A stretch of 64,000 nucleotides of DNA from Eledone cirrhosa (taxonomy: Eukaryota), in contig OZ024744.1 of the NCBI GenBank assembly GCA_964016885.1, positions 61,690,001 to 61,754,000 on the forward strand. The letters are read 5' to 3'. Both the position numbers and the translations under genes were made by a program. Below, in pieces: positions 3,994 through 42,539 of this stretch (the stretch's first letter is position 1; every line of letters starts with the position of its first letter). The notes beneath the pieces are model-generated. The model saw nothing but the letters and a program-made list of their open reading frames with translations. It was not told the origin of the DNA and made no database searches.

Positions 3994-4104
3994 ATTATAA
4001 TAAATGAAAGACAGTTACTTTAAACCATCCCAATTTATTTTATTATATGCATTTCGAAGATGCAAGGCTTATAACAATAAATTGGGATGGTTTAAAGTAA
4101 CTGT

Positions 4105-4188
4105 CTTTCCGTGTATTACTGGTACTTTATTTTATCGACCCCGTAAGGATGAAAGGCAAAGTTAACCTTAACGCGATTTGAACTCAGA
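4105..4188 (-). mobile_element. SINE family A fragment
   Basis: ggtactttattttatcgaccccgtaaggatgaaaggcaaagttaacc..gatttgaactcaga, shared with the full copy at 17090-17278. Confidence 0.75.
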
Positions 4189-4494
4189 TATTATAATAAT
4201 TAAAAACAAATAACGAAACGAAATTAAATTTCGTTTCGTTTGTAACTCACTTTCGTATGACTGACGCTTAAACAATTAAGTTAAAAATGTACATCCACAT
4301 ATGTATACTGAAATACTAGTATGCATATGAATACACACACGTATACATATGTAGATGTACCGATTTTTTCACTGGTCACTTTACTGTGAGTGACCAGCTA
4401 TTCTGTATGTAAACACACAGACAAACCGGTTTTTAGAGTCATACTGGTTTTTGAGGAAACACCTTTCCTCTATTCTCCAGAAAGCCAGACAAGG

Positions 4495-4539
4495 AATATT
4501 GAACTAGTTTCGTTGTTGTTACAACTCATCAGCAATATT
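4495..4539 (-). ncRNA. Minimal type I hammerhead ribozyme (array unit 1)
   Basis: Minus strand AATATTG-CTGATGA-GTTGT-AACA-ACAAC-GAAA-CTAG-TT^CAATATT. Confidence 0.85.
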
Positions 4540-4960
4540 TACCTATCTTCCGGCCTTTCTAGAGAATCGTAAAAGCACATATCGTTATATGCTTTTTCTA
4601 TGAAAATTAGTAGTGGGCAGACTAATTTGCATAGAGCGTGAGTACGTACCGGTTCAACGGAGACGATAAAAACAAATAACGAAACGAAATTAAATTTCGT
4701 TTCGTTTGTAACTCACTTTCGTATGACTGACGCTTAAACAATTAAGTTAAAAATGTACATCCACATATGTATACTGAAATACTAGTATGCATATGAATAC
4801 ACACACGTATACATATGTAGATGTACCGATTTTTTCACTGGTCACTTTACTGTGAGTGACCAGCTATTCTGTATGTAAACACACAGACAAACCGGTTTTT
4901 AGAGTCATACTGGTTTTTGAGGAAACACCTTTCCTCTATTCTCCAGAAAGCCAGACAAGG

Positions 4961-5005
4961 AATATTGAACTAGTTTCGTTGTTGTTACAACTCATCAGCA
5001 ATATT
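4961..5005 (-). ncRNA. Minimal type I hammerhead ribozyme (array unit 2)
   Basis: Same sequence as unit 1, offset 466 bp. Confidence 0.85.
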
Positions 5006-5426
5006 TACCTATCTTCCGGCCTTTCTAGAGAATCGTAAAAGCACATATCGTTATATGCTTTTTCTATGAAAATTAGTAGTGGGCAGACTAATTTGCATAG
5101 AGCGTGAGTACGTACCGGTTCAACGGAGACGATAAAAACAAATAACGAAACGAAATTAAATTTCGTTTCGTTTGTAACTCACTTTCGTATGACTGACGCT
5201 TAAACAATTAAGTTAAAAATGTACATCCACATATGTATACTGAAATACTAGTATGCATATGAATACACACACGTATACATATGTAGATGTACCGATTTTT
5301 TCACTGGTCACTTTACTGTGAGTGACCAGCTATTCTGTATGTAAACACACAGACAAACCGGTTTTTAGAGTCATACTGGTTTTTGAGGAAACACCTTTCC
5401 TCTATTCTCCAGAAAGCCAGACAAGG

Positions 5427-5471
5427 AATATTGAACTAGTTTCGTTGTTGTTACAACTCATCAGCAATATT
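5427..5471 (-). ncRNA. Minimal type I hammerhead ribozyme (array unit 3)
   Basis: Same sequence as unit 1, offset 932 bp. Confidence 0.85.
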
Positions 5472-5988
5472 TACCTATCTTCCGGCCTTTCTAGAGAATC
5501 GTAAAAGCACATATCGTTATATGCTTTTTCTATGAAAATTAGTAGTGGGCAGACTAATTTGCATAGAGCGTGAGTACGTACCGGTTCAACGGAGACGATA
5601 AAAACAAATAACGAAACGAAATTAAATTTCGTTTCGTTTGTAACTCACTTTCGTATGACTGACGCTTAAACAATTAAGTTAAAAATGTACATCCACATAT
5701 GTATACTGAAATACTAGTATGCATATGAATACACACACGTATACATATGTAGATGTACCGATTTTTTCACTGGTCACTTTACTGTGAGTGACCAGCTATT
5801 CTGTATGTAAACACACAGACAAACCGGTTTTTAGAGTCATACTGGTTTTTGAGGAAACACCTTTCCTCTATTCTCCAGAAAGCCAGACAAGGAATATTGA
5901 ACTAGTTTCGAAATTTAATTTCGAAATTTAATTTCGTTTCGTTATTTGTTTTTATCGTCTCCGTTGAACCGGTACGTACTCACGCTCT

Positions 5989-5996
5989 ATGCAAAT
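5989..5996 (+). promoter_or_regulatory. Octamer motif ATGCAAAT upstream of hammerhead (also at 4625-4632 and equivalent positions on the minus strand)
   Basis: Perfect octamer 92 nt 5' of CTGATGA; same relative position in two related families. Promoter function is inferred. Confidence 0.5.
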
Positions 5997-6081
5997 TAGT
6001 CTGCCCACTACTAATTTTCATAGAAAAAGCATATAACGATATGTGCTTTTACGATTCTCTAGAAAGGCCGGAAGATAGGTA

Positions 6082-6126
6082 AATATTGCTGATGAGTTGT
6101 AACAACAACGAAACTAGTTCAATATT
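6082..6126 (+). ncRNA. Minimal type I hammerhead ribozyme (inverted unit)
   Basis: AATATTG-CTGATGA-GTTGT-AACA-ACAAC-GAAA-CTAG-TT^CAATATT; 7-bp stem I, 5-bp stem II. Confidence 0.85.
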
Positions 6127-6347
6127 CCTTGTCTGGCTTTCTGGAGAATAGAGGAAAGGTGTTTCCTCAAAAACCAGTATGACTCTAAAAACCGGTTTGT
6201 CTGTGTGTTTACATACAGAATAGCTGGTCACTCACAGTAAAGTGACCAGTGAAAAAATCGGTACATCTACATATGTATACGTGTGTGTATTCATATGCAT
6301 ACTAGTATTTCAGTATACATATGTGGATGTACATTTTTAACTTAATT

Positions 6348-6448
6348 ATTATAATAATTGTTTCTACTTTTGGCACAAGGCCTGCAATTACCAATGTACT
6401 GGGTAATTGCTGGCCTTGTGCCAAAAGTAGAAACAATTATTATAATAA
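6348..6448. repeat. Fold-back of two SINE A 3' tails
   Basis: ataataattgtttctacttttggcacaaggcc...ggccttgtgccaaaagtagaaacaattattat. Confidence 0.8.
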
Positions 6449-6589
6449 AACTCTGGTTAAACATATACTGTTGAGTGTTTGAAATCTGTTATATATAAGT
6501 CAGCTCATTCTAAATCAACTAACTCTTTTTCATTAAACAAATATATATATATACAAAATTGAACGTTTTTTTTAGCTGAACAGGTATAA

Positions 6590-6760
6590 ATTAATTGTTT
6601 CTACTTTTGGCAGAAGGCCAGCAATTATGCCAGTGCTTACTGGTGCTTTATTTTATCGATTCCGTAAGGATGAAAAGTAAAGTTAACCGTGACAGGATTT
6701 GAATTCAGAACGTAAATGGCCATAACTCTATATTGCAAAGCATGGTGTCTGACGGGTATA
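6590..6760 (-). mobile_element. SINE family A copy
   Basis: Colinear with 17090-17278. Confidence 0.75.
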
Positions 6761-7049
6761 AATCAATGTTTTGTCTTTCATCTCTTACTCCTTTGGACAG
6801 CATTTGGCTTATGTTAGACGATGTGGCCTTGGATAGACCAGCAGTACCACTGCCCAAGTCCATCTCAAAGGCCGATGACTGTGAAGTTCTGTGTCTTTCG
6901 TTTGTATTTTTTTTTTTTAAATAATTTTTTAACATTTCCTCTTAAAAAATTGTTTTTCGTTTTGGTTTGTCTCCATTCGTTGTCTTGTCCTTTCTTTGTT
7001 AATTTTCTTAAGTTTACACGAATGAACCTGTTATTTTTCTCTCAAAACA

Positions 7050-7226
7050 TTTTTTCCAATTCCACCCTGTCCGTCCCTTCAAGCTATCTAATTTCTCATT
7101 CTTTCTTCTGATGAAGGACTAACGTCCAAAACGTTAAGACCTTCTTCCTGCTATTTCAAGCGTTAACCTAATATATTCCTTCCATATACTCTACCGATTG
7201 TGTTATTATTTCTGTTTACCTTTTAC

Positions 7227-7232
<6 letters not shown>
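7050..7232 (+). mobile_element. PLE pseudo-LTR remnant with decayed hammerhead
   Basis: TCTT-CTGATGA-AGGAC-TAAC-GTCC-(A)AAA-CG-TT^AAGA at 7104-7139 (G12>A); near-identical block at about 36110-36295, diverged at 43688-43815. Confidence 0.65.
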
Positions 7233-7313
<81 letters not shown>

Positions 7314-7439
7314 GATAAATCTACCAAAATATACGGTAGTGTCCAATCCGTATGAAGAACTCAATGTAATCCAAATATCATGAAAAGAGAAGATGCATTC
7401 AACAATTTTCGATGAAGATCATAGGAAAACAGAGTCAAG

Positions 7440-10250
7440 ATAAATTAATAAAAACAATGAAATAAAAACAAAGAACAAGTTTCTTATATTTAAAAATTCA
7501 TCATTTTACGATCGTTTCTGGGATGTATATGTGTGTTGGTATGTATATCATATAGATCTATGTAAAAATATTACAAATTATCAGAGGAAATATACATACC
7601 TTCACATATACATGCCGTCCTCAGAAATGATGGGATATGTTTATTGAAAAAAACCCCAACAAGATTCAATATAAAAGGTCTGTTTGGGAACAGGTTTTGA
7701 ATTGACCAATAGAAAAGTAGTTAGAGGTCAAGTTGATAGAATAGCAGTAGTAGAAATTTAATTTAGGGATAGAGGAGTGCAGACTTATGTTTTGAATCAA
7801 AAGAGGTCAAGCCAAGACGATAGTGAAGTGTACACGAACATTTGATGTTATTAAAGAATAATGTTAAAAACGAAGGAAAATAAAATTTTAGGGTAGGGGT
7901 ATTAGTGAGAAATACCAATCTTATTTAAGCTACAAGGAATCTAGATACATAACAAGAAATTAAATTAATTTATAGGTATACTTATAGGTATTAATTTTAG
8001 GAAAAGAGAGCTGTAAGAGGGAAATAAAATTTTGAAGTTCTCTGTAGTAAAGTACTAATTATAGGTTAACTAAATTTAAAAAAAACAATTATAATAATTT
8101 GTAAAATATAAGAGTAAGGTGTATATTAATTAGGTTTATAATATTTGAAGGTTCTTCTAATTCTATGATTGCAAGATATAATTAATTCCTGTCGCTTATT
8201 TAATAGGATATCCTTAGCTTTCATGATTTCAAAAAGTTCCTGGGAGTATAACCTACACTCGTATCTGCTATTTTGATAAGGGGTGGCCCTTTTGAGCATG
8301 CTCCAGGTCAGGTTGTAATCGATATTCTTCTTTCTATAATTATTAATTGTTTCAGCCAAGTATTGGCTAATGCGGCATTTTTAAAACTATGTTTGTGGGT
8401 ATTAAATATTACTTTAAATTGGTTAGACGTAGCTCCTATATATATGAATAAGTGGAGTCCTTAGTGCCAATTTTACATTTATAGACTATGTTATTAATAA
8501 AACAATTTCCCTTTAATGAGCAATTTCTTTTGATTCTACAGTTACAACCATTCGTGAATATTATATCAGGGGAGTTAGTCAAATTTGGTGTGGAGTTTGC
8601 TCGACTTGTTATAGATGAAGGAGATGGTGGTTTGTTGCGTTTTCTTTTAGTATTAGGTTGGTTTGATGTGTTGGTGGTATATTTGTGTTTTTATTTACAC
8701 TTATATGCGTTGTATGCACTTATATTCTGTTGTATATTTTTGGTAGTGGGGTAGGAAAATTTGACAGTTGATCTATTTAAAATTTGATGGTATTTATGGT
8801 TTGGTGGGAAGTTTTTCTCTAGGATAGCAAAGAATATTTTAGGGGTATTGTCTTTAATTTATAAATTAAATGGAGCATTATACCAAGTAACCCGTCTATT
8901 ACGGTTTCGATATTGTTTTTTATATTTATACGATGTATCAGGATGTTTACTAAGAGAGTTACTATTAGTGACTTTATTATATATATGTTTAATTAGATTA
9001 ACTGATTTAGGTGTTTTAGTCTGATTACTAGGAATTTTGTTAGTAATGTTGTTAACATATATTGGAGTATTAGGATGAATGGTTTTTTGAAAGTCATTAT
9101 ATTTTATGTGAGAAAAGGTAGGTAGAGAAATTAAGTTTTAGGTTGGTATTTTTGGGTGTAGTATGAGTGACATTTAGGTGTGGGTTTTTCATTTGGTGGC
9201 TGTTGGTAATATTGGGTTGTATGTTTGAAGTATTGTTGGTGCAAGGTATATAGACTAATTTGTTTTTGTGGCCGCTTCTAGCTAAAGCTTCGTTATAAAA
9301 GGGCGTATTTTTATCGAATACATCCTGGTTAGATGAAAGGTTAGAGATTCTGAGTGAGATGTTATATGCTAGGTTTTTAAGGATAGATCTAGGGTGATTG
9401 GATTGTGAGTGTATGTAATGTAACTTTTGGTTAGGTTTATGGTAAGGTTGGTAGATACCCGTAGATAGGTCTAAAGTTATATCTAGGAAATTGACTATTT
9501 TACTGGTGCTTTCAAATGTAATAGTGAAATTGTAATAGTCTTTGAGGAAAGTTCTAATAAGTCTTTTATTTCTTTCAATTTCTGATAGGCTAAGATTAGT
9601 GGAAAGAAGAAGACAGTCATCACGATATAAACCACCTTTAAGGTGGGGAAAAGATGAATTAATGTTAAATAGAAGAAAGAGGCCCACAAGATCGGTAATT
9701 TGGGCGGAATCACTAGAGCCCATAGTTATGTCGAAGAGATTACTATATGTATTTCTGGTCCAGTATTCCTTCTGAAACTCCAGTAGTGTTTGTCTAGCGT
9801 GCGTGATAATATTAATATCATCCATAGTTAAGTTTGATCTATTTTTGACAAATATCAAAGCTTTGTTCGGGAGTATGGGTGATATAGAGGACTAATAAGC
9901 ATCTATATCAAATTGTAGAAATGAAGCAGATGATTTATTTCTAATATTAGTAAACCAGTTAATTACTTGGGATGTGTTTTCCCAGAGTGGTAAGTTAACG
10001 TGTTTTCTTAATTGTGGGATAATTCTATCTAACGTTTTTTTTACTAATGATGCCAATGTCTGATTTGGAAGGGCATATAAGTCTTATAGAAGGATTAGAG
10101 TTAAAGTTAGATTTGTGATCTTTCAGGTTAAAGTGTGGTTTTTTCAGTGCCAAAGGTTCAGTTCTGTCTTCAATATTGATTTTATTTACTATGTTGTATG
10201 TTTTGTTGTTGATATTGGTAAGAGCAGCATTATTTGTTTTTTTTATAATG
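7440..10250 (-). mobile_element. Penelope-like element (RT + C-terminal GIY-YIG endonuclease + pseudo-LTR), 5'-truncated and frameshifted; Hydra-clade-like
   Basis: LKDHK..NPSIRLICPSKSDIG; MGSSDSAQITDLVGL..GLYRDDCL..VNFLDITLDL..SNHP; RRVTWYNAPF..NRSTVKFSY; CNCRIKRNC..IVY..YIGAT; LLNKRQELIISCNH; hammerhead in 3' UTR. Clade assignment is tentative. Confidence 0.88.
7501..7630 (-). ncRNA. Type I hammerhead with long stem II (PLE pseudo-LTR)
   Basis: Minus strand TCATTT-CTGAGGA-[about 99 nt, ATGTATATGTG..CACATATACAT arms]-GAAA-C-GATC-G-TA^AAATGA. Confidence 0.75.
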
Positions 10251-10274
10251 AACTCAGGAAAAATTATAACTAAA

Positions 10275-11455
10275 CAGAAATACATATAGTAATCTCTTCG
10301 ACATAACTATGGGCTCTAGTGATTCCGCCCAAATTACCGATCTTGTGGGCCTCTTTCTTCTATTTAACATTAATTCATCTTTTCCCCGCCTTAAAAGTGG
10401 TTTATATCGTGATGACTGTCTTCTTCTTTCCACTAATCTAAGCCTATCAGAAATTGAAATAAATAAAAAACTTATTAGAACTTTCCTCAAAGACTATTAC
10501 AATTTCACTATTACATTTGAAAGCACCAGTAAAATAGTCAATTTCCTAGATATAACTTTAGACCTATCTACGGGTATCTACCAACCGTACCATAAACCTA
10601 ACCAAAACTTACATTACATACACTCACCAATCCAATCACCCTAGATCTTTTTGAAATCATGAAAGCTAAGGATATCCTATTAAATAAGCGACAGGAATTA
10701 ATTATATCTTGCAATCATAGAATTAGAAGAACCTTCAAATATTATAAACCTAATTAATATACACCTTACTCTTATATTTTACAAATTATTATAATTGTTT
10801 TTTTTAATTTAGTTAACCTATAATGAGTACTTTACTACAGAGAACTTCAAAATTTTATTTCCCTCTTACAGCTCTCTTTTCCTAAAATTAATACCTATAA
10901 GTATACCTATAAATTAATTTAATTTCCTGTTATGTATCTAGATTCCTTGTAGTTTAAATAAGATTGGTATTTCTCACTAATACCCTTCTCCTAAAATTTT
11001 ATTTTCCTTCGTTTTTAACATTATTCTTTAATAACATCAAATTTTCGTGTACCCTTCACTATCGTCTTGGCTTGACCTCTTTTCACCCCCGAAGTATTCT
11101 TTTCATTCGAAACATAAGTCTGCACTCCTCTACCCCTAAATTAAATTTCTACTACTGCTATTCTATCAACTTGACCTCTAACTACTTTTCTATTGGTCAA
11201 TTCAAAACCTGTTCCCAAACAGTCCTTTTATATTAAATTTTTGTTGTTTTTTTTTCAATAAACACATCTCATCATTTCTGAAGACGGCATGTGAAGGTAT
11301 GTATATTTCCTCTAATAATTTGTAATATTTTTACATGGATCTATATGATATACATACCAACACACATATACATCCCAGAAACGATCGTAAAATGATGATT
11401 TTTTTAATATAAGGAACTTGTTCTTTGTTTTTATTTCATTGTTTTTATTAATTTA
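10275..11455 (+). mobile_element. Inverted, internally deleted copy of the same PLE (RT fragment joined to 3' pseudo-LTR)
   Basis: 10277-10648 is the reverse complement of about 9385-9755; 10650-11455 is the reverse complement of about 7440-8235; hammerhead at 11271-11396 (CTGAAGA...GAAACGATCGTA). Confidence 0.9.
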
Positions 11456-11467
11456 TATATATATATA

Positions 11468-11745
11468 TAGAAGTGGTTACACAACAGTTAGTTCACCATA
11501 CCGAGAACAATTGTTTCACCTTAACGGATCTTCAGCTCGGGAGGTATATGGTTATAGGAACAGGAAGGACAACCGTTGTCCTTCCTGTTCCTATAACCAT
11601 ACACATCCCGAGCTGAAGATCCGCGAAAGTGAAACAATTGTTCTCGGTATGGTGAACTAACTGTTGTGTAACCACTTCTACCTAACTCGTCCCTTGGACT
11701 GAGTGCTCTACCACTACGGATATTACCCTCCAGTGTTCCACCACT
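11468..11745. ncRNA. About 210-bp palindrome carrying two divergent minimal hammerheads (11501-11540 minus, 11608-11647 plus)
   Basis: CCGAG-CTGAAGA-short stem II-GAAA-C-AATT-G-TT^CTCGG on each arm; centre about 11574; flanked by (TA)n. Confidence 0.75.
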
Positions 11746-11938
11746 ATATATATATATATATATAGTAAGGTGTATTATTGGTTGTGTAAAACGGTCCAAT
11801 AAATTTGTTAACAATATTAAGTTCTCCACGCTTTTGTATATCTCCAATTCCATTCAAGGGAACAGCTAGATGATGTAAAACGGAGTATAAGTATCAAAAT
11901 GAAAATCTGAAGGCAAGGTAAAATTCCAATCATTTTAA

Positions 11939-12007
11939 TCACGACAGATGTTTCAATAAGTGATAGATCGATCGTAATGATCAATTATCACTGATCTCAT
12001 CAGGTGA
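11939..12007 (-). ncRNA. Type I hammerhead ribozyme
   Basis: Minus strand TCAC-CTGATGA-[AGTGATA..GATC..GATC..TATCACT stem II]-GAAA-C-ATCT-G-TC^GTGA. Confidence 0.75.
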
Positions 12008-13044
12008 AAATGAATTGTCTTCAAATTCTTGATATGAAAATTAGGGAGAAAATTAGCAATGTTCACTCACAGAGTTTATTCCCTCATATGAAGATTCAGT
12101 AGTCAGAAATACGGCGACTGCTATCAGCTTCAGTTAGGGTTATAAAACTGTCAAATCTTCATAGCTGCGAAGGACGCTGGACATTAATCAGATCTGTAGA
12201 AATACAGTCGGTCACAGTTAATGTGAGTGGGTACACACACACACTCAACACCCAGACTCACCGGTTCGAGGTCAAAGAAAAAAAAAATATATATATATAC
12301 ACATATCAACACAGCATCAAACCTGTAGAACTATAGAAGGTCACAATTAGTGTGAGTGGGTACACACACACTCTCACACACACCGAAGCGATGTCATAGA
12401 AAAAAACAACAAATATAAGAATAAGAATATACCAACACAGCATTCACCGAAAGTTCGTTTACAAAACAACAAATGCTACATTGGTCAAATCTCAATTTGA
12501 CGATGTAAATTGGAAATATTGGGTTAACCACAGCCCCCCCCCCCCCCCACACACACACACAAGCAAGTAAGTTCAGTTCAGTGTTCTGTTATACATGTAT
12601 AGATTGAATTGTAACATCCGTATCTCCAAGTGTAAGTTATGGTATATACACATCCGTATCGTCCGAAAAAGTGTATGTCAGGTATATACACATCCATGTG
12701 AAGAGCAAGCAATCAGCTCATATCGAACTCAGTATGTACCGCTGTCCCATTGAGAGTCTGAGTCACCAAAAACCGTGCGTGCAAGAATATATATATAAAT
12801 ATTTGCTCTACGGTTCTTATATATTTGATATATATTTATCCTTATCGAGCCCTCTTTGGATTTTAGTCTTCAAATTTATTATTATTACTATATATATATA
12901 TATATATATATATGTAAAAGTTCTATTTAAATTGTTGGGATACAACAAGCAAATATTTTTATAACTGATATAAAGCACTCAACAAATATTTGGAGTAAAA
13001 ATAGGATATTAACAAATGGAAACTATATTTATAAAACCATATTT

Positions 13045-13107
13045 ATTTCATTATACATATTTCAAGGACACCAAGTTAAATTATGGTGTGCTTTCATCAG
13101 ATAAAAT
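13045..13107 (-). ncRNA. Minimal type I hammerhead ribozyme
   Basis: Minus strand ATTTTAT-CTGATGA-AAG.ACACCA..TGGTGT.CTT-GAAA-TATGTA-TA^ATGAAAT. Confidence 0.8.
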
Positions 13108-13607
13108 ATAATATAGATCAGTTTTATAAATAAATATTGACATACCCTTAAAGAATGCAACCATTGCTGTTGGAATATATAAAAAAGAAAAGAGGAATAA
13201 CGGAAAAAGGGAGGGAAGAAGTGGGGAGTGTTAAAGGGAACGGGGGGGGGGGGGGGTAAAGAAAAAGGAAAAAAAAAGAAAAAAAGAAAAAGAAGGAAAC
13301 ACCAAATAGAGGGGAATAAAAAAAAACTGTTGTTTTCAAATGCTAGATAAAATAAATTAAATCTATTCACTTAAACAATTGAATATCGCTTGTATTTTAT
13401 TAGGTTTTAGCTATTTATACTTTTATATTATATCTAGATTATTCAGTATAGATTAGCAATCACATATTTAATTTAATTATAAATTTATATAATTTAATTT
13501 AACTCATTATAGATTATTATAATTTTTAATTTTAAGGGAAGATTTTCAATAAATATTTTGTTATAACTTTAAAAGAATTAATCTTTAAAGCGTATTTAAA
13601 TAATTAT

Positions 13608-14467
13608 TAAACGGAAAAAATGAAACGAAATTTCATTTCCCACTCTTAGTACAGCTGCTTCTTAAATATAAGTATGTACATACATATATGTATACAGACG
13701 TACAGTAGTACGATTAACCCACTCGATATGCAAATTGGGCTACACAACCGTTAATATGCATAAGGTAAGTATATACGTTCAACAATCTGACAGGAAGGTA
13801 TACATTGCTGACGATAGCTAATAAGCGTGAAACTAGTACAGCGTTCCTGTGTCAGTGTTGAACAAACGAGCAACGATCGTTGCTAGACACTACGGCTTAA
13901 TACGGGATGTTTGTTTACGAACACACCGGGCATTATAATAAATGTTCGGTGAATCCATACGTACATATATATATGTGTGCATGTATGTATATATATATAC
14001 ATACTACTGTACGTCTGTATACATATATGTATGCACGTGTACATACTTATATTTAAGTAACAGCCGTACTAAGAGTGGAAAATGAAATTTTGTTTCATTT
14101 TTTCCGTTTATCGTTTTCGGTGCACCCGGCCGATTAAACCACTCGATATGCAAATTGGGCTACTCAGCCGTTAATATGCATAAGGTAAGTATATACGTTC
14201 AACAATCTGGCAGGAAGGTATACGTTGCTGACGATAGCTAATAAGCTTGAAACTAGTACAGCGTTCCTTTGTCAGTGTTGAACAAACGAGCAACGATGGT
14301 TGCTAGACACTACGGCTTAATACGGTATGTTTGTTTACAAACACACCGAGCATTATAATAAATGTTCGGTGAATCCATACGTACATATATATATGTGTGC
14401 ATGTATGTATATATATATATACATACTATTGTACGTCTGTATACATATATGTATGTACGTGTACATA

Positions 14468-14472
<5 letters not shown>
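13608..14472 (+). repeat. 420-bp tandem unit (about 1.8 copies) preceded by an inverted fragment; second hammerhead-bearing retrozyme-like family
   Basis: Units start 13711 and 14131; octamers at 13728 and 14148; hammerheads at 13802-13844 and 14222-14264 (AC[A/G]TTG-CTGACGA-TAGCT-AATA-AGC[G/T]T-GAAA-CTAG-TA^CAGCGT); 13608-13710 is an inverted unit tail; ends in (TA)n. Confidence 0.88.
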
Positions 14473-14532
<60 letters not shown>

Positions 14533-14587
14533 CGTTTCTGAATTTGTTTAGCAAGATTCTTTATCTGAAATCGTGTGTTGAAACCGA

Positions 14588-14836
14588 TATTGTTATACTT
14601 TGGGAGGGTCATGTTGCCAATAAGAAACACACGCACCAGTTGCTTTCACAGAACTATGACTATATATAAGAACTATGACTATATATAAACAACTATCTGG
14701 TTGTGGACCCAACCAACCAACCAGAAATTTATAAATTTATAAATTTATTATAAATTTATTATAATAAATTGAAGTGAAAGCAACTGGTGCGTGTGTTTCT
14801 TATTGGCAACATGACCCTCCCAAAGTATAACAATAT
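14588..14836. repeat. Inverted repeat with about 62-bp arms between (TA)n tracts
   Basis: atattgttatactttgggagggtcatgttgcc...gctttcac / gtgaaagc...ggcaacatgaccctcccaaagtataacaatat. Confidence 0.85.
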
Positions 14837-15549
14837 ATATATATATAGCTGAAAACTCTGCGTTAATCACTATACTTTAGACAATGTATCTACTTGACAA
14901 TAAATTCTTCGATATATGTTACAGTAAGTACTTCAGAAATTTTACATACCGAAAATATTGACACTGCGATATGTAATTTTTGTTAAAGATTACATATAAG
15001 AAAAAATTCAACAGTGTATATTTTTCTTTCGCGGGCCTAGTCAATCCTTTAATTTTGTTTTCTTAAAATTCAGAATTTTAGTAATGTAACACATTTAAAA
15101 CATTTATAAAATTTATAAAATTAATATAAATAACCATCAACTTTTAAAAACTTAAAATTTTGATTCTTCACCCTAAAATAACATAAATTAAATACTTTGA
15201 AACTTAACCGCTAAGTCCATATGGGGAAAATTTTCTTTGCATAAATTACTCCCCTTTATCTCTCCCTCTCTTTAATTATCTCTCGGTTGCCTTCATAAAC
15301 TGTAATAAAATTATATTTCCAGAGACGTCTTCCTCTATATTCCTAATTTGTAGTATCCCACATTTTAAAATCTCTATAACCGTTACATTAAAGCAACGTT
15401 TTCCTTACTCACACATTCTCTATTGAATCTATTACGTTTTCGCATTTTCTCATTATTAGGGTATAAATGTTGAGTTTTCTCATAGGTTAATCACTACCTT
15501 GATTAAATCTTAACCATTTAACATCTCAGGGTATGTCATGTATCATTAT

Positions 15550-15602
15550 ATTTTGTCTGATGAGGACGTTCTGTTGTACCTCTGAAATATGTATAATAAA
15601 AT
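15550..15602 (+). ncRNA. Minimal type I hammerhead ribozyme
   Basis: ATTTTGT-CTGATGA-[stem II]-GAAA-TATGTA-TA^ATAAAAT; stem II imperfect. Confidence 0.65.
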
Positions 15603-17066
15603 TTAATTGATCAAAAGAACATCTATTTTATTAATATTTGTATTTTAATATTATATATATATATATATAACGTAGATTACGTGTCGCTGGAGATATTAAT
15701 ATAGTTATCGATTCAGAAGGCAATGTCGAAAACGACATAATCCATTATAACAAAAATCCCCCTTTATTTGTTGTACAAATATAGAATCGAAATAACAAGA
15801 GAGGGTTGAGTAAGTCTTCACATCATGTTGGCTGCATATTCCAGTGGAGATGTGAAAGAATGGTGGCATATCAAATGTCGGACGTCTTGATGCTACCAGG
15901 TCGTTCAGTTAACTCTGTCTCTCTACCCTGTCAGCCAACTTTGTCTCTGGTCCAAGTAGTCCAGCAACTTGTCTCGATCCGTTGAGGGCCTTGATTGGCT
16001 CCACTTCAGCCAATTTATCTCTGTGACACCATTCTTCCGCCAAAGGAAAATACATTTAATTCTGTTCACTACATACATACTTATATATAAATACATATAT
16101 ATATATACATACTTATATATAAATACATATACTCCTATTCATAAATGTCCATATATATATATATATACAATGGTGCAGTGCTAAAAAAATAAAGGAGGGA
16201 AAACATTTAAAAAGTATTATAGAGATGCTGGTGGGTGTATGAGGGAATGCAGCAAATCTATATAGTTGTGAGTTGTAAGTTCTGTGGAGAAAAGGGGTGA
16301 AAAAAAACAGTTGGCTATGGGCTGGAACCAACATGGGGACAATAACAATGCCTGACTGATCAGCAGATAGGTTTAATCAATCTGTGTAACAATTGATTGG
16401 TCAGTGGTCTTTGTGTTTGGGACATCACTTTTCACTTTGGACAAAAAGAATTAGAATTACGGAAATAAAAAGACAATTTTAAATTTGATTTATTTGAAAT
16501 AGTAACAAAACATTATTCCCCACTATTCCCAAAAGTAGGGAACATCATTCCCACAGCTCTACACTGCTGCGCAATATACTACAAATGTACTTTTTCTTTT
16601 AAATTAAAATACCATGTAGCTGCCAAATAGAACATGTTCAGTTGTGTGTGTGTAAGCTGTCTGCACTGTCATCAAAAATAGGTAATGTATAATCTTAATC
16701 ACCAATTTAAAAAAAAAACATGGAGATGAAATATTCTGACCTTGAATAAATTCACAACACACCTGAGTAATTTTACAACATACAGGTTATTGGAAACTTG
16801 TGTAAGGTTAAAAGCACTACGGAATAAAAATAAGTGAAAACAACATTCTGTTTGCATATATTTGTTTTGTTCTTAACTTCAAGTAAAAACCAAGCAGTAT
16901 TAATGAAATAATTATAATAAGCGATTGCAGTCATGGCTGTATGGCTAAGTAGTTTGGTTTGCAACCACTGTGTGGGCAAGTATCTTCTACTATAGCTGTG
17001 GGTTGACCAATGTCTTATAGGTGAAACTTGATAGACAGAAACTGTAGAAGCCAAGCATATATATAT

Positions 17067-17656
17067 ATGTAAGTATGGGTTTGAATAATAATAATTGTTT
17101 CTACTTTTGGCACAAGGCCAGCAATTACCCAGTGTATTACTGGTACTTTATTTTATCGACCCCGTAAGGATGAAAGGCAAAGTTAACCTCGGCGGGATTT
17201 GAACTCAGAATGGCAAGGGCCGTAACTCCATGCGTCAAAGCATGGCGTCCGACCTTCTACCGATACTACCAATCTACCGGTTTGAATAATAATAATAATA
17301 TTTGATTAGTTTGCAAGCAAACGGCCTTACTAAGCTATGCTCTGTGTTGATGGCTATTGCCATTCATTTGTTCAACAGTAGCATCGAGGGACAATCAACA
17401 TGCTTCTGTGTCATTACTCTTCATCATGACTGTATACCTCTCTGCTACTTGATTAAACTGTTGAAAATATATAGTATTTTCTAAAATATACATCGACTAA
17501 TTAGCCTCATTTGCATACTGAGCAATTTTACAGCTGGCCTTGCCGAAAATTAAAAACAAAATTAGAATTTGATTTCTCGCACTAGCATAGCAGATTACAT
17601 AAATGTAAGTATGAGTTTGGAAAATGTTAATAATATTCGATTCGTTTGCAAGCAAA
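17067..17656 (-). repeat. Decayed about 335-bp retrozyme-like monomer with terminal redundancy (third family), interrupted by a SINE
   Basis: Direct repeat taataatatt.gatt.gtttgcaagcaaa at 17293 and 17628; octamer at 17509-17516; mutated hammerhead ACAGTC-(A)TGATGA-..-GAA(G)-CATG-TT^GATTGT at 17391-17433. Confidence 0.65.
17090..17278 (-). mobile_element. tRNA-related SINE family A, full-length with TSD
   Basis: B-box-like GAGTTCAAATCC on minus strand, (TTA)n tail, duplicated target GGTTTGAATAAT at 17078 and 17279. Confidence 0.85.
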
Positions 17657-22229: not shown

Positions 22230-22662
22230 TATGGTTTGGCAATATTGGTAGAGGGTTGGACGCCATGCATTGCAGCATAGAGTTACGACCCTTATGGTCT
22301 GAGTTTAAATTCTGTCGAGGTTAACTTTGCCTTTCATCCTTACAGGGTCGATAAAGTACCAGTAATGCACTAGGATAATTGTTGGCCTTGTGCCAAATGT
22401 AGAAACAATTATTTGTACCTTACGGGGTCACTAAAATAAAGCACCAGTAATGCACTGGAAATTGCTGGCCTTGTGCCAAAAGTAGAAACAATTATTTGTA
22501 CCTTATGGGGTCACTAAAATAAAGCACCAGTAATGCACTGGAAATTGCTGGTCTTGTGCCAAAAGTAGAAACAATTATTTGTACCTTATGGGGTCACTAA
22601 AATAAAGTACCAGTAATGCACTGGAAATTGCTGGTCTTGTGCCAAAAGTAGAAACAATTATT
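22230..22662 (+). mobile_element. SINE family A with tandemly amplified about 84-bp 3' end
   Basis: Head with B-box-like GAGTTTAAATTC, then four copies of ccttac/tggggtc..ccagtaatgcact..tgtgccaaa.gtagaaacaattatt. Confidence 0.85.
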
Positions 22663-22699
22663 TTGTACTGTTGTGGAAAGTTGTAAGCCTAATTAATAA

Positions 22700-42144: not shown

Positions 42145-42539
42145 TATATCATCATTATCATCATCATCATCATCATCATTTAATGTCTATTTTTCCATGC
42201 TTGCATGTGTTAGACTGGTTGTCATTTTATGAGACAAGTCATGTCCAGAAATCACATTTTGCTCATACAGATCTGTATTTGACTTGTTTTCAATGGCTGG
42301 ATACCCTTCCTAATGCCAGCCACATTTACAGTATGGACTGGGTGCATTTTGTTGTGTTACCAACACGACCTCTTTATAGTATGGACTGGATGGTTTTTGC
42401 CATGGTACCAAAACGACCACTTTACAGTGTTGACTGGGGTCTGGGATATTCATAGTTACACCTTCTGTTTACCCGTGCTTGGTTGAATTTCTTCACTTTG
42501 ACATTCAGAACACTGGGCACAAATCATATCACATCTATC

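What the first reader, a model, noticed from the sequence alone, without database searches (positions are those of the whole stretch)
4201..17656. Three divergent families share one layout: hairpin, octamer, GGTA-containing motif, minimal hammerhead
Seen: the 466-, 420- and about 335-bp units differ in sequence but keep the same order. An AT-rich hairpin (GAAATTTAATTTC / GAAATTTTGTTTC / AAATCAAATTCTAATTTT) is followed by a perfect ATGCAAAT (5989, 13728, 14148, 17509-17516 minus). Then 72-92 nt later comes AGGTA and a hammerhead whose loop 3 is a 4-nt palindrome (CTAG, CTAG, CATG). Stems I and II differ in sequence yet still pair, which amounts to covariation. Established: newt satellite 2, a hammerhead tandem repeat, is transcribed from an snRNA-type promoter with an octamer. 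Inference: these units carry an internal snRNA-like promoter, so they would be self-transcribing and self-cleaving. That would be a deep or convergent parallel to the amphibian system in an invertebrate.
Basis: partly seen in the sequence, partly recalled or inferred. Interest (0 to 1): 0.85.

Follow-up and report, generated by a model that had tools for sequence, protein, structure and literature searches.

The report
Self-cutting repeats carry snRNA-type promoter
These are copies of an abundant, protein-free repeat of a known kind (a retrozyme) whose units each hold a predicted self-cutting RNA and, just ahead of it, a conserved block built from the host's own small-nuclear-RNA promoter motifs, which likely lets the repeat transcribe itself before Penelope-type enzymes likely paste it elsewhere.

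Summary
The layout is real, with corrections. The three units are related families of non-LTR retrozymes; 38,107 such hammerheads lie in the genome, 28,989 matches with a perfect octamer upstream. The hammerhead is canonical type I, not minimal: AGGTA is its stem I bulge. The window's third copy is decayed. Across five families 41-76% alike, two found without selecting for the octamer, TATGCAAAT is the longest invariant run, followed by a PSE-like word at +16 and TATA at +42/43. The host has this octamer at -76 to -79 in 7 of 9 Pol III genes and in 0 of 19 Pol II snRNA promoters, yet the PSE-to-TATA spacing is the Pol II one, so the promoter looks hybrid and the polymerase is unresolved. The hairpin belongs to a Penelope-type tail: insertions are head-to-head, end at two fixed sites and favour (TA)n. 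Transcription and cleavage are untested; no RNA run was listed. Internal promoters are reported for newt and schistosome repeats, so this is a new variant of a known kind. The scan noted the same system four times elsewhere in this genome.

The parts
4201..6347 (.). Family A insertion: head-to-head arms, 4201-5910 (-, 3.7 units, ends at site E2) and 5922-6347 (+, ends at site E1)
4190..4200 (+). 11-bp target-site duplication, left copy (right copy 6348-6358)
4213..4239 (-). Tail hairpin of A (repeats at 4679, 5145, 5611), followed by T5 and end site E2
5989..5996 (+). Octamer of A (also 5557-5564, 5091-5098, 4625-4632 on -)
6005..6036 (+). PSE-like CCAC at +16 and TATAA at +43; start site predicted near 6061
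   Evidence: start site inferred from host geometry
6077..6129 (+). Type I hammerhead of A, predicted cut after 6119 (GUU); also 5424-5476, 4958-5010, 4492-4544 on -
13608..14474 (.). Family B insertion: arm 13608-13716 (-, E2) and arm 13713-14474 (+, 1.8 units, E1) running into (TA)n
13728..13775 (+). Promoter-like block of B, first unit (octamer 13728, +16 word mutated, TATATA 13770)
13796..13848 (+). Hammerhead of B, first unit
14080..14100 (+). Tail hairpin of B with T6 (inverted copy 13618-13638)
14148..14195 (+). Promoter-like block of B, second unit (octamer 14148, TCAG 14164, TATATA 14190)
14216..14268 (+). Hammerhead of B, second unit, predicted GUA cut
17284..17656 (-). Old family C copy, about 1.1 units, 79-88% to its best relatives
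17558..17575 (-). Weak tail hairpin of C, followed by T4/T5/T4
17466..17516 (-). Promoter-like block of C (octamer 17516-17509, TATATA at +43)
17387..17439 (-). Decayed hammerhead of C (core substitutions)
7311..11455 (.). Context, not part of the units: decayed Penelope-like element, head-to-head arms between (TA)n tracts; RT-like fragment 9097-9891 (-)

Best explanation
These units are non-LTR retrozymes of one superfamily whose conserved octamer-PSE-like-TATA block likely works as an internal snRNA-type promoter, whose transcripts are predicted to be cut by the hammerheads into unit-length and likely circular RNAs, and which a Penelope-like reverse transcriptase likely copies into AT-rich DNA. 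Steps: (1) shown: the block is conserved and matches host snRNA-class promoter words; inferred: it starts transcription about 73 nt after the octamer, at the 5' edge of hammerhead stem I. (2) Inferred: the polymerase reads through the tail and the next unit's promoter, so the promoter gets into the RNA; I favour Pol II over Pol III about 60:40, because PSE-to-TATA spacing is the host Pol II value and T5-T7 runs persist in the path. (3) Predicted from structure and from other animals: successive hammerheads cut, probably as dimers since helix III is very short, and a host ligase closes the monomer. (4) Shown: insertions have two opposed arms ending at two fixed sites 37-74 nt apart, mostly in (TA)n, with scattered 5' ends; inferred: both target strands prime reverse transcription at the two tail sites and roll round a circular template. 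New copies of more than one unit rebuild a promoter upstream of a hammerhead.
For: TATGCAAAT is the longest invariant run (9) in a five-family alignment with 21% background invariance. D and E came from an octamer-blind pattern and carry it. Host: octamer at -76 to -79 in U6 x3, U6atac, MRP, tRNA-Sec x2 (7 of 9 Pol III-class genes, two with one mismatch), 0 of 19 U1/U2/U4/U5/U12 promoters, which have YCAG at -55 to -58. Family C scores 18.4 bits on the host Pol II PSE-TATA matrix at +16, above all 141,572 background windows; A and B' score 23.4 and 20.7 on the Pol III octamer matrix (host 13.9-24.9). Octamer upstream of 77 of 134 short-helix-III hammerheads and 0 of 48 long-helix-III ones in held loci. 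E1+E2 ends in 26 of 28 (A) and 16 of 24 (B) two-armed insertions, never E2+E2; tail as the span between two RT start sites: PMC11167929; inverted arms, tail and (TA)n bias: PMC8557442. Arm 5' ends within 8 nt of the cut site: 1 of 52 and 0 of 32. Intact 817-aa Penelope-like ORFs exist in the genome.
Against: No transcript, start site, cleavage or circle was observed. Octamer-to-TATA is 42-43 nt in A-D against 46-49 in host genes. A, B and E score poorly on the Pol II matrix; B, C and E match the Pol III matrix little beyond the 8-mer. The units lack the host's -91 AATTAAAT and distal TTACCTCCCTT words. In B the octamer is not better kept than flanks (233 of 240, 97.1% against 98.5%). C shows 0 of 26 E1+E2 insertions. 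The one Penelope family examined shares no tail sequence with the units. Some short-helix hammerhead families lack the octamer. Eight of nine predicted Xenopus retrozymes did not cleave in vitro (bioRxiv 2026.07.22.740005).
Confidence: 0.68

Rival explanations
1. Same system, but a U6-type (type 3) Pol III gene: the RNA mostly runs from the hammerhead to the T-run in the tail, and rare read-through gives the unit-length circles.
For: The proximal octamer is found only in host Pol III genes (7 of 9 against 0 of 19). A and B' match beyond the 8-mer. E has the host 47-49 nt spacing. No run of four or more T lies between the predicted start and 16 nt before E1 in any of five units (1,124 nt; about 5.9 expected by base shuffles, 1.9 by dinucleotide shuffles). 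Schistosome repeats use Pol III (PMC2220036 passage).
Against: Every propagated copy must be read through T5-T7 and several T4 runs; B's E2 lies about 9 nt beyond its T6. PSE-to-TATA is 26-28 nt against 32-33 in 7SK and RNase P genes. The T-run deficit is not significant by dinucleotide shuffles, the boundaries were set after seeing the data, and the families are related.
Confidence: 0.27
2. The block is not a working promoter: the units are transcribed by read-through from host genes or Penelope promoters, and the octamer is kept for another role (chromatin protein site, RNA structure) or inherited from a young common ancestor.
For: No expression data; spacing fits neither host class exactly; three of the five aligned families were chosen because they had the octamer; no excess conservation among B copies.
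Against: Families are only 41-76% alike yet keep 9 of 9 bases, more than either half of the catalytic core; three separate words keep host-like spacing while TATA-to-hammerhead distance varies freely (core at +80 to +100); the orientation is the host's.
Confidence: 0.17
3. Ordinary satellite DNA spread by recombination, with chance or dead hammerhead-like motifs.
For: Arrays of about 31 units exist; only A reaches an Rfam hammerhead model, below its gathering score (37.7 against 52 bits).
Against: Dispersed copies on many chromosomes at 96-100% identity, fixed paired 3' ends, an 11-bp target duplication and compensatory stems.
Confidence: 0.03

Closest known systems
Metazoan non-LTR retrozymes (Cervera and de la Pena 2020, PMC7229834; abstract, passages, parts 2 and 4 of 6 read; supplement unreadable)
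   Same: Non-coding tandem units of a few hundred bp, GC under 50%, one type I hammerhead each, long target duplication; Penelope proposed as partner.
   Different: No promoter described in the text read (0 occurrences of octamer); 466-484-bp units are at or above the 150-450 range; helix III resembles the amphibian weak form; direct Penelope-type scars shown here.
Newt satellite 2 (Coats, Zhang and Epstein 1994; paper not held; known from a passage in PMC2220036; the octamer detail is recalled)
   Same: Hammerhead tandem repeat with an internal snRNA-type promoter; very short helix III with palindromic loop.
   Different: There Pol II was shown; here the octamer is the host's Pol III-gene word and the polymerase is open. 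Common descent not tested.
Schistosome hammerhead satellite (Ferbeyre 1998; not held; passage in PMC2220036)
   Same: Invertebrate hammerhead repeat with an internal promoter; GGUA bulge in stem I (recalled).
   Different: Pol III promoter of another kind (A/B box, recalled); here octamer, PSE-like word and TATA.
Penelope-like elements and their non-autonomous derivatives (PMC8557442 passages; PMC11167929 passages and half of the main text; bioRxiv 2026.07.22.740005 parts 1-3 of 5)
   Same: Inverted arms, tail on one end only, AT-rich targets, two RT start sites.
   Different: No ORF; canonical rather than minimal hammerhead; tail of 37-74 nt; no sequence shared with the Penelope family examined.
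Host type 3 Pol III and Pol II snRNA promoters (derived here)
   Same: Octamer with T/G-A-G extension, YCAG word, TATA-like word.
   Different: No host gene examined has all three in this arrangement.

Membership tests
Non-LTR retrozyme | Tandem non-coding units of about 150-450 bp, low GC | tested here: met
   333-484 bp, GC 0.36-0.45; two families slightly above the range
Non-LTR retrozyme | Type I hammerhead in each unit | tested here: met
   window's C copy decayed
Non-LTR retrozyme | Dispersed insertions with long target duplication | tested here: met
   11 bp in the window; unreadable where the target is (TA)n
Non-LTR retrozyme | Self-cleavage and circular RNA in vivo | not testable with these tools
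   no RNA run listed
Canonical type I hammerhead | Core CUGANGA/GAAA, stems I-III, stem I bulge and 6-nt loop 2 ending in A | tested here: met
   Rfam HH9 E 1.3e-6 for A only, under the gathering score
Minimal (Penelope-type) hammerhead | No stem I bulge or loop-loop contact | tested here: not met
   invariant GGTA bulge and extended stem I
Penelope-mobilised element | Inverted arms, tail at one end, two fixed 3' ends | tested here: met
   A 26 of 28, B 16 of 24 two-armed insertions; D 7 of 20, C 0 of 26 complete insertions
Penelope-mobilised element | 3' sequence shared with an autonomous partner | tested here: inconclusive
   none with the one family examined, six loci; other families not examined
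Host type 3 Pol III promoter | Proximal TATGCAAAT(T/G)AG | tested here: met
Host type 3 Pol III promoter | TATA 46-49 nt after the octamer | tested here: not met
   42-43 in A-D; 47-49 only in old E copies
Host type 3 Pol III promoter | T-run-free body closed by oligo(T) | tested here: inconclusive
Host Pol II snRNA promoter | YCAG word about 24-28 nt before a TATA-like word | tested here: inconclusive
   spacing fits; matrix score strong for C, modest for D and B', weak for A, B, E
Host Pol II snRNA promoter | AATTAAAT near -91 and distal TTACCTCCCTT | tested here: not met
   absent from five units
Newt satellite 2 promoter | Functional octamer and PSE driving Pol II | not testable with these tools
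   paper not held; needs experiments

The most novel reading that the evidence does not exclude
A retrozyme superfamily has built a compact chimeric promoter found in no host gene examined: the octamer module of U6-class genes fused to the PSE-TATA geometry of U1/U2-class genes, carried inside a circular RNA. Tens of thousands of snRNA-type promoters have been scattered over the genome this way, and such a promoter may be the ancestral or repeatedly evolved engine of animal retrozymes from cephalopods to newts.
Probability: 0.3. Interest if true: 0.8.

Novelty: new variant of a known kind. Interest (0 to 1): 0.56.

Why it matters
How retrozymes reach their very high RNA levels, and what copies them, are open points in the retrozyme papers read. 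This locus set gives a concrete promoter to mutate, a predicted start site, two reverse-transcription start sites and evidence for a template without a fixed 5' end, so both questions become testable. It also yields the host's own U6-class and U1-class promoter grammar, useful for guide-RNA expression in this animal group, and a natural test of what sets polymerase choice at snRNA promoters.

Tried and rejected
Rfam at gathering thresholds found no hammerhead in the window. No RNA holder was listed; contigs of four runs of unrecorded kind cover family A, one closing on itself at unit length, which tandem DNA also gives, so no evidence on expression. Pfam named neither the RT fragment nor the 817-aa ORF; the Penelope label rests on atlas look-alikes and motifs read by eye. 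A metagenome scan for the same hammerhead gave 3 loci, none with an upstream octamer; too few and of unknown origin to test generality. The family E search returned mostly an unrelated repeat and only 2 further listed relatives were used. Seven of the eight U6atac hits and one U6 locus looked like promoterless retrocopies and were left out of the promoter set; two U1 loci have a distal reverse octamer near -400, taken as chance. Rejected: octamer as a vertebrate-like distal enhancer (host has none there); hairpin as promoter part; site E2 as a plain Pol III end (lies beyond the T-run in B); pile-up of 5' ends at the cut or start site. Paper searches found no description of this promoter in invertebrate retrozymes; most subscription papers and the three original papers were not available, and unseen supplements could hold relevant sequences.
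Full report
Observation. The window holds three repeat insertions. Family A (4201-6347) is a 3.7-unit array of a 466-bp unit on the minus strand joined head to head to a plus-strand arm, flanked by an 11-bp duplication. Family B (13608-14474) has the same two-armed form with a 420-bp unit. Family C (17284-17656, minus) is an old copy of about 1.1 units. The hammerheads align without gaps over 53 nt, with invariant GGTA bulge and core, and stems that covary (24 double changes against 11.1 shuffled; rows related). A matches Rfam HH9 at E 1.3e-6, below the gathering score; B and C match no hammerhead model. AGGTA is thus part of a canonical type I ribozyme. Helix III is two pairs closing two bases, or one pair with a palindromic tetraloop, the weak form that needs dimers in amphibians (PMC7229834). 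The window's C copy has core substitutions and is probably dead.

Abundance and kinship. A and B are young (best copies 96-100%), C older (79-88%). An octamer-blind pattern found further families: D (333 bp, 20 copies aligned) and old E copies, both with the octamer; B' is a subfamily with 8 more bases after TATA. Other families found the same way lack it. A, B, B', C and D are 41-76% alike; of 285 gap-free columns 75 are invariant, and the longest run is TATGCAAAT (9), then ATATA (5), then the two core halves (4 each). Among copies the octamer is kept at 190 of 197 in C (25 of 30 loci, five duplicates dropped) against 90.7%, 159 of 160 in D against 96.1%, and 233 of 240 in B against 98.5%: modest support in two, none in the third, as expected of neutral decay.

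Host promoters. Upstream regions of host genes were fetched. All 19 distinct U1, U2, U4, U5 and U12 promoters lack an octamer near -77; the 18 tabulated have YCA(G/A) at -55 to -58 and a TATA-like word near -30. Seven of nine Pol III-class genes (three U6 types, U6atac, MRP, two tRNA-Sec) have the octamer at -76 to -79, five perfect, with TATA at -30; 7SK and RNase P have TCAG at -63 and -66 instead. The MRP word equals family C over 14 bases. In the repeats the octamer is followed by YCA(G/C) at +16 and TATA at +42/43 (A-D), or at +20/21 and +47 to +49 (E). So PSE-to-TATA stays 26-28 nt, the host Pol II value (32-33 in 7SK and RNase P), while the octamer is the host Pol III word. On matrices from these small sets C fits the Pol II model (18.4 bits at +16, above 141,572 background windows), D and B' modestly, A, B and E poorly; A and B' fit the Pol III model best. 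The predicted start, +72/73, falls at the 5' edge of stem I, and in C and D on the same AGC-A context as most U1 genes. Element sequence and spacing bear on polymerase choice in insects (PMC1761439, abstract and passages). Bodies lack runs of four T, which hints at Pol III but is not significant by dinucleotide shuffles; T5-T7 in the tail must be read through for the promoter to enter the RNA, which favours Pol II (inference).

Mobilisation. Of two-armed insertions 26 of 28 (A; 43 complete clusters) and 16 of 24 (B; 46 clusters) have one arm ending at each site and none has E2 twice; D 7 of 20 and C 0 of 26 complete insertions. Flanks are (TA)n-like in 25 of 40 (A) and 40 of 50 (B). This is the inverted, one-tailed form of Penelope-like elements (PMC8557442 passages), where the tail is the span between two RT start sites and both target strands are extended (PMC11167929). 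Arm 5' ends are scattered, 1 of 52 and 0 of 32 within 8 nt of the cut site and none near the predicted start, and arms cross up to ten cut sites; a circular template explains this most simply, though uncut multimers with random drop-off would too. Loci were chosen for holding a near-full unit. A decayed Penelope-like element lies in the window and intact 817-aa relatives exist, but this family shares no tail sequence with the units, so the partner is unidentified.

Comparison and verdict. By structure these are non-LTR retrozymes (PMC7229834); a Penelope origin is argued in a 2026 preprint, with no promoter analysis in the main text read. Internal promoters are reported for newt satellite 2 (snRNA type, Pol II) and a schistosome repeat (Pol III) (PMC2220036 passage; originals not held). 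Searches found no account of an octamer-PSE-TATA block in invertebrate retrozymes. Four earlier notes of this scan describe the same system elsewhere in this genome; they agree but are not independent support. Transcription, polymerase, cleavage and circles are inferred. Verdict: real, a new variant of a known kind, interest 0.56.

Noticed in passing
L091-L149, L157, L238-L260 (host ncRNA genes): Host snRNA promoter grammar: Pol II genes have AATTAAAT near -91, YCAG at -57 and a TATA-like word at -30; most Pol III genes an octamer at -77; many of both a distal TTACCTCCCTT near -260. The RNase P RNA gene has a stand-alone TCAG plus TATA promoter with the distal word doubled.
   Followed up: partly
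window 7311-11455: Decayed Penelope-like element with head-to-head arms, (TA)n flanks and a one-sided tail of about 130 nt; at least 145 relatives, several with intact 817-aa ORFs.
   Followed up: partly
window 15557(+), 13100(-), 12003(-), 2361(-), 57039(-), 7053(+): Long-helix-III, Penelope-type hammerheads without an octamer; the one near 7053 has AAAA in place of GAAA.
   Followed up: partly
window 4006-4199, 6358-6443, 6590-6770, 17089-17283, 22351-22668: Very abundant SINE-like repeat with a long hairpin head; family A inserted into one copy; an 83-bp tandem of it at 22351; one copy interrupts a U6 promoter (L141).
   Followed up: no
L071, L194, L233, L305, L336, L348; window 14530-14840: Another short-helix hammerhead family with no octamer; one copy sits beside a Penelope-like ORF fragment (L305); the window holds what look like remnants.
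   Followed up: no
window 42465-42517 (-): 53-nt fragment of 28S rRNA.
   Followed up: no
G000:C1:5738327-5752443: Family A array of about 31 units plus an inverted arm.
   Followed up: no
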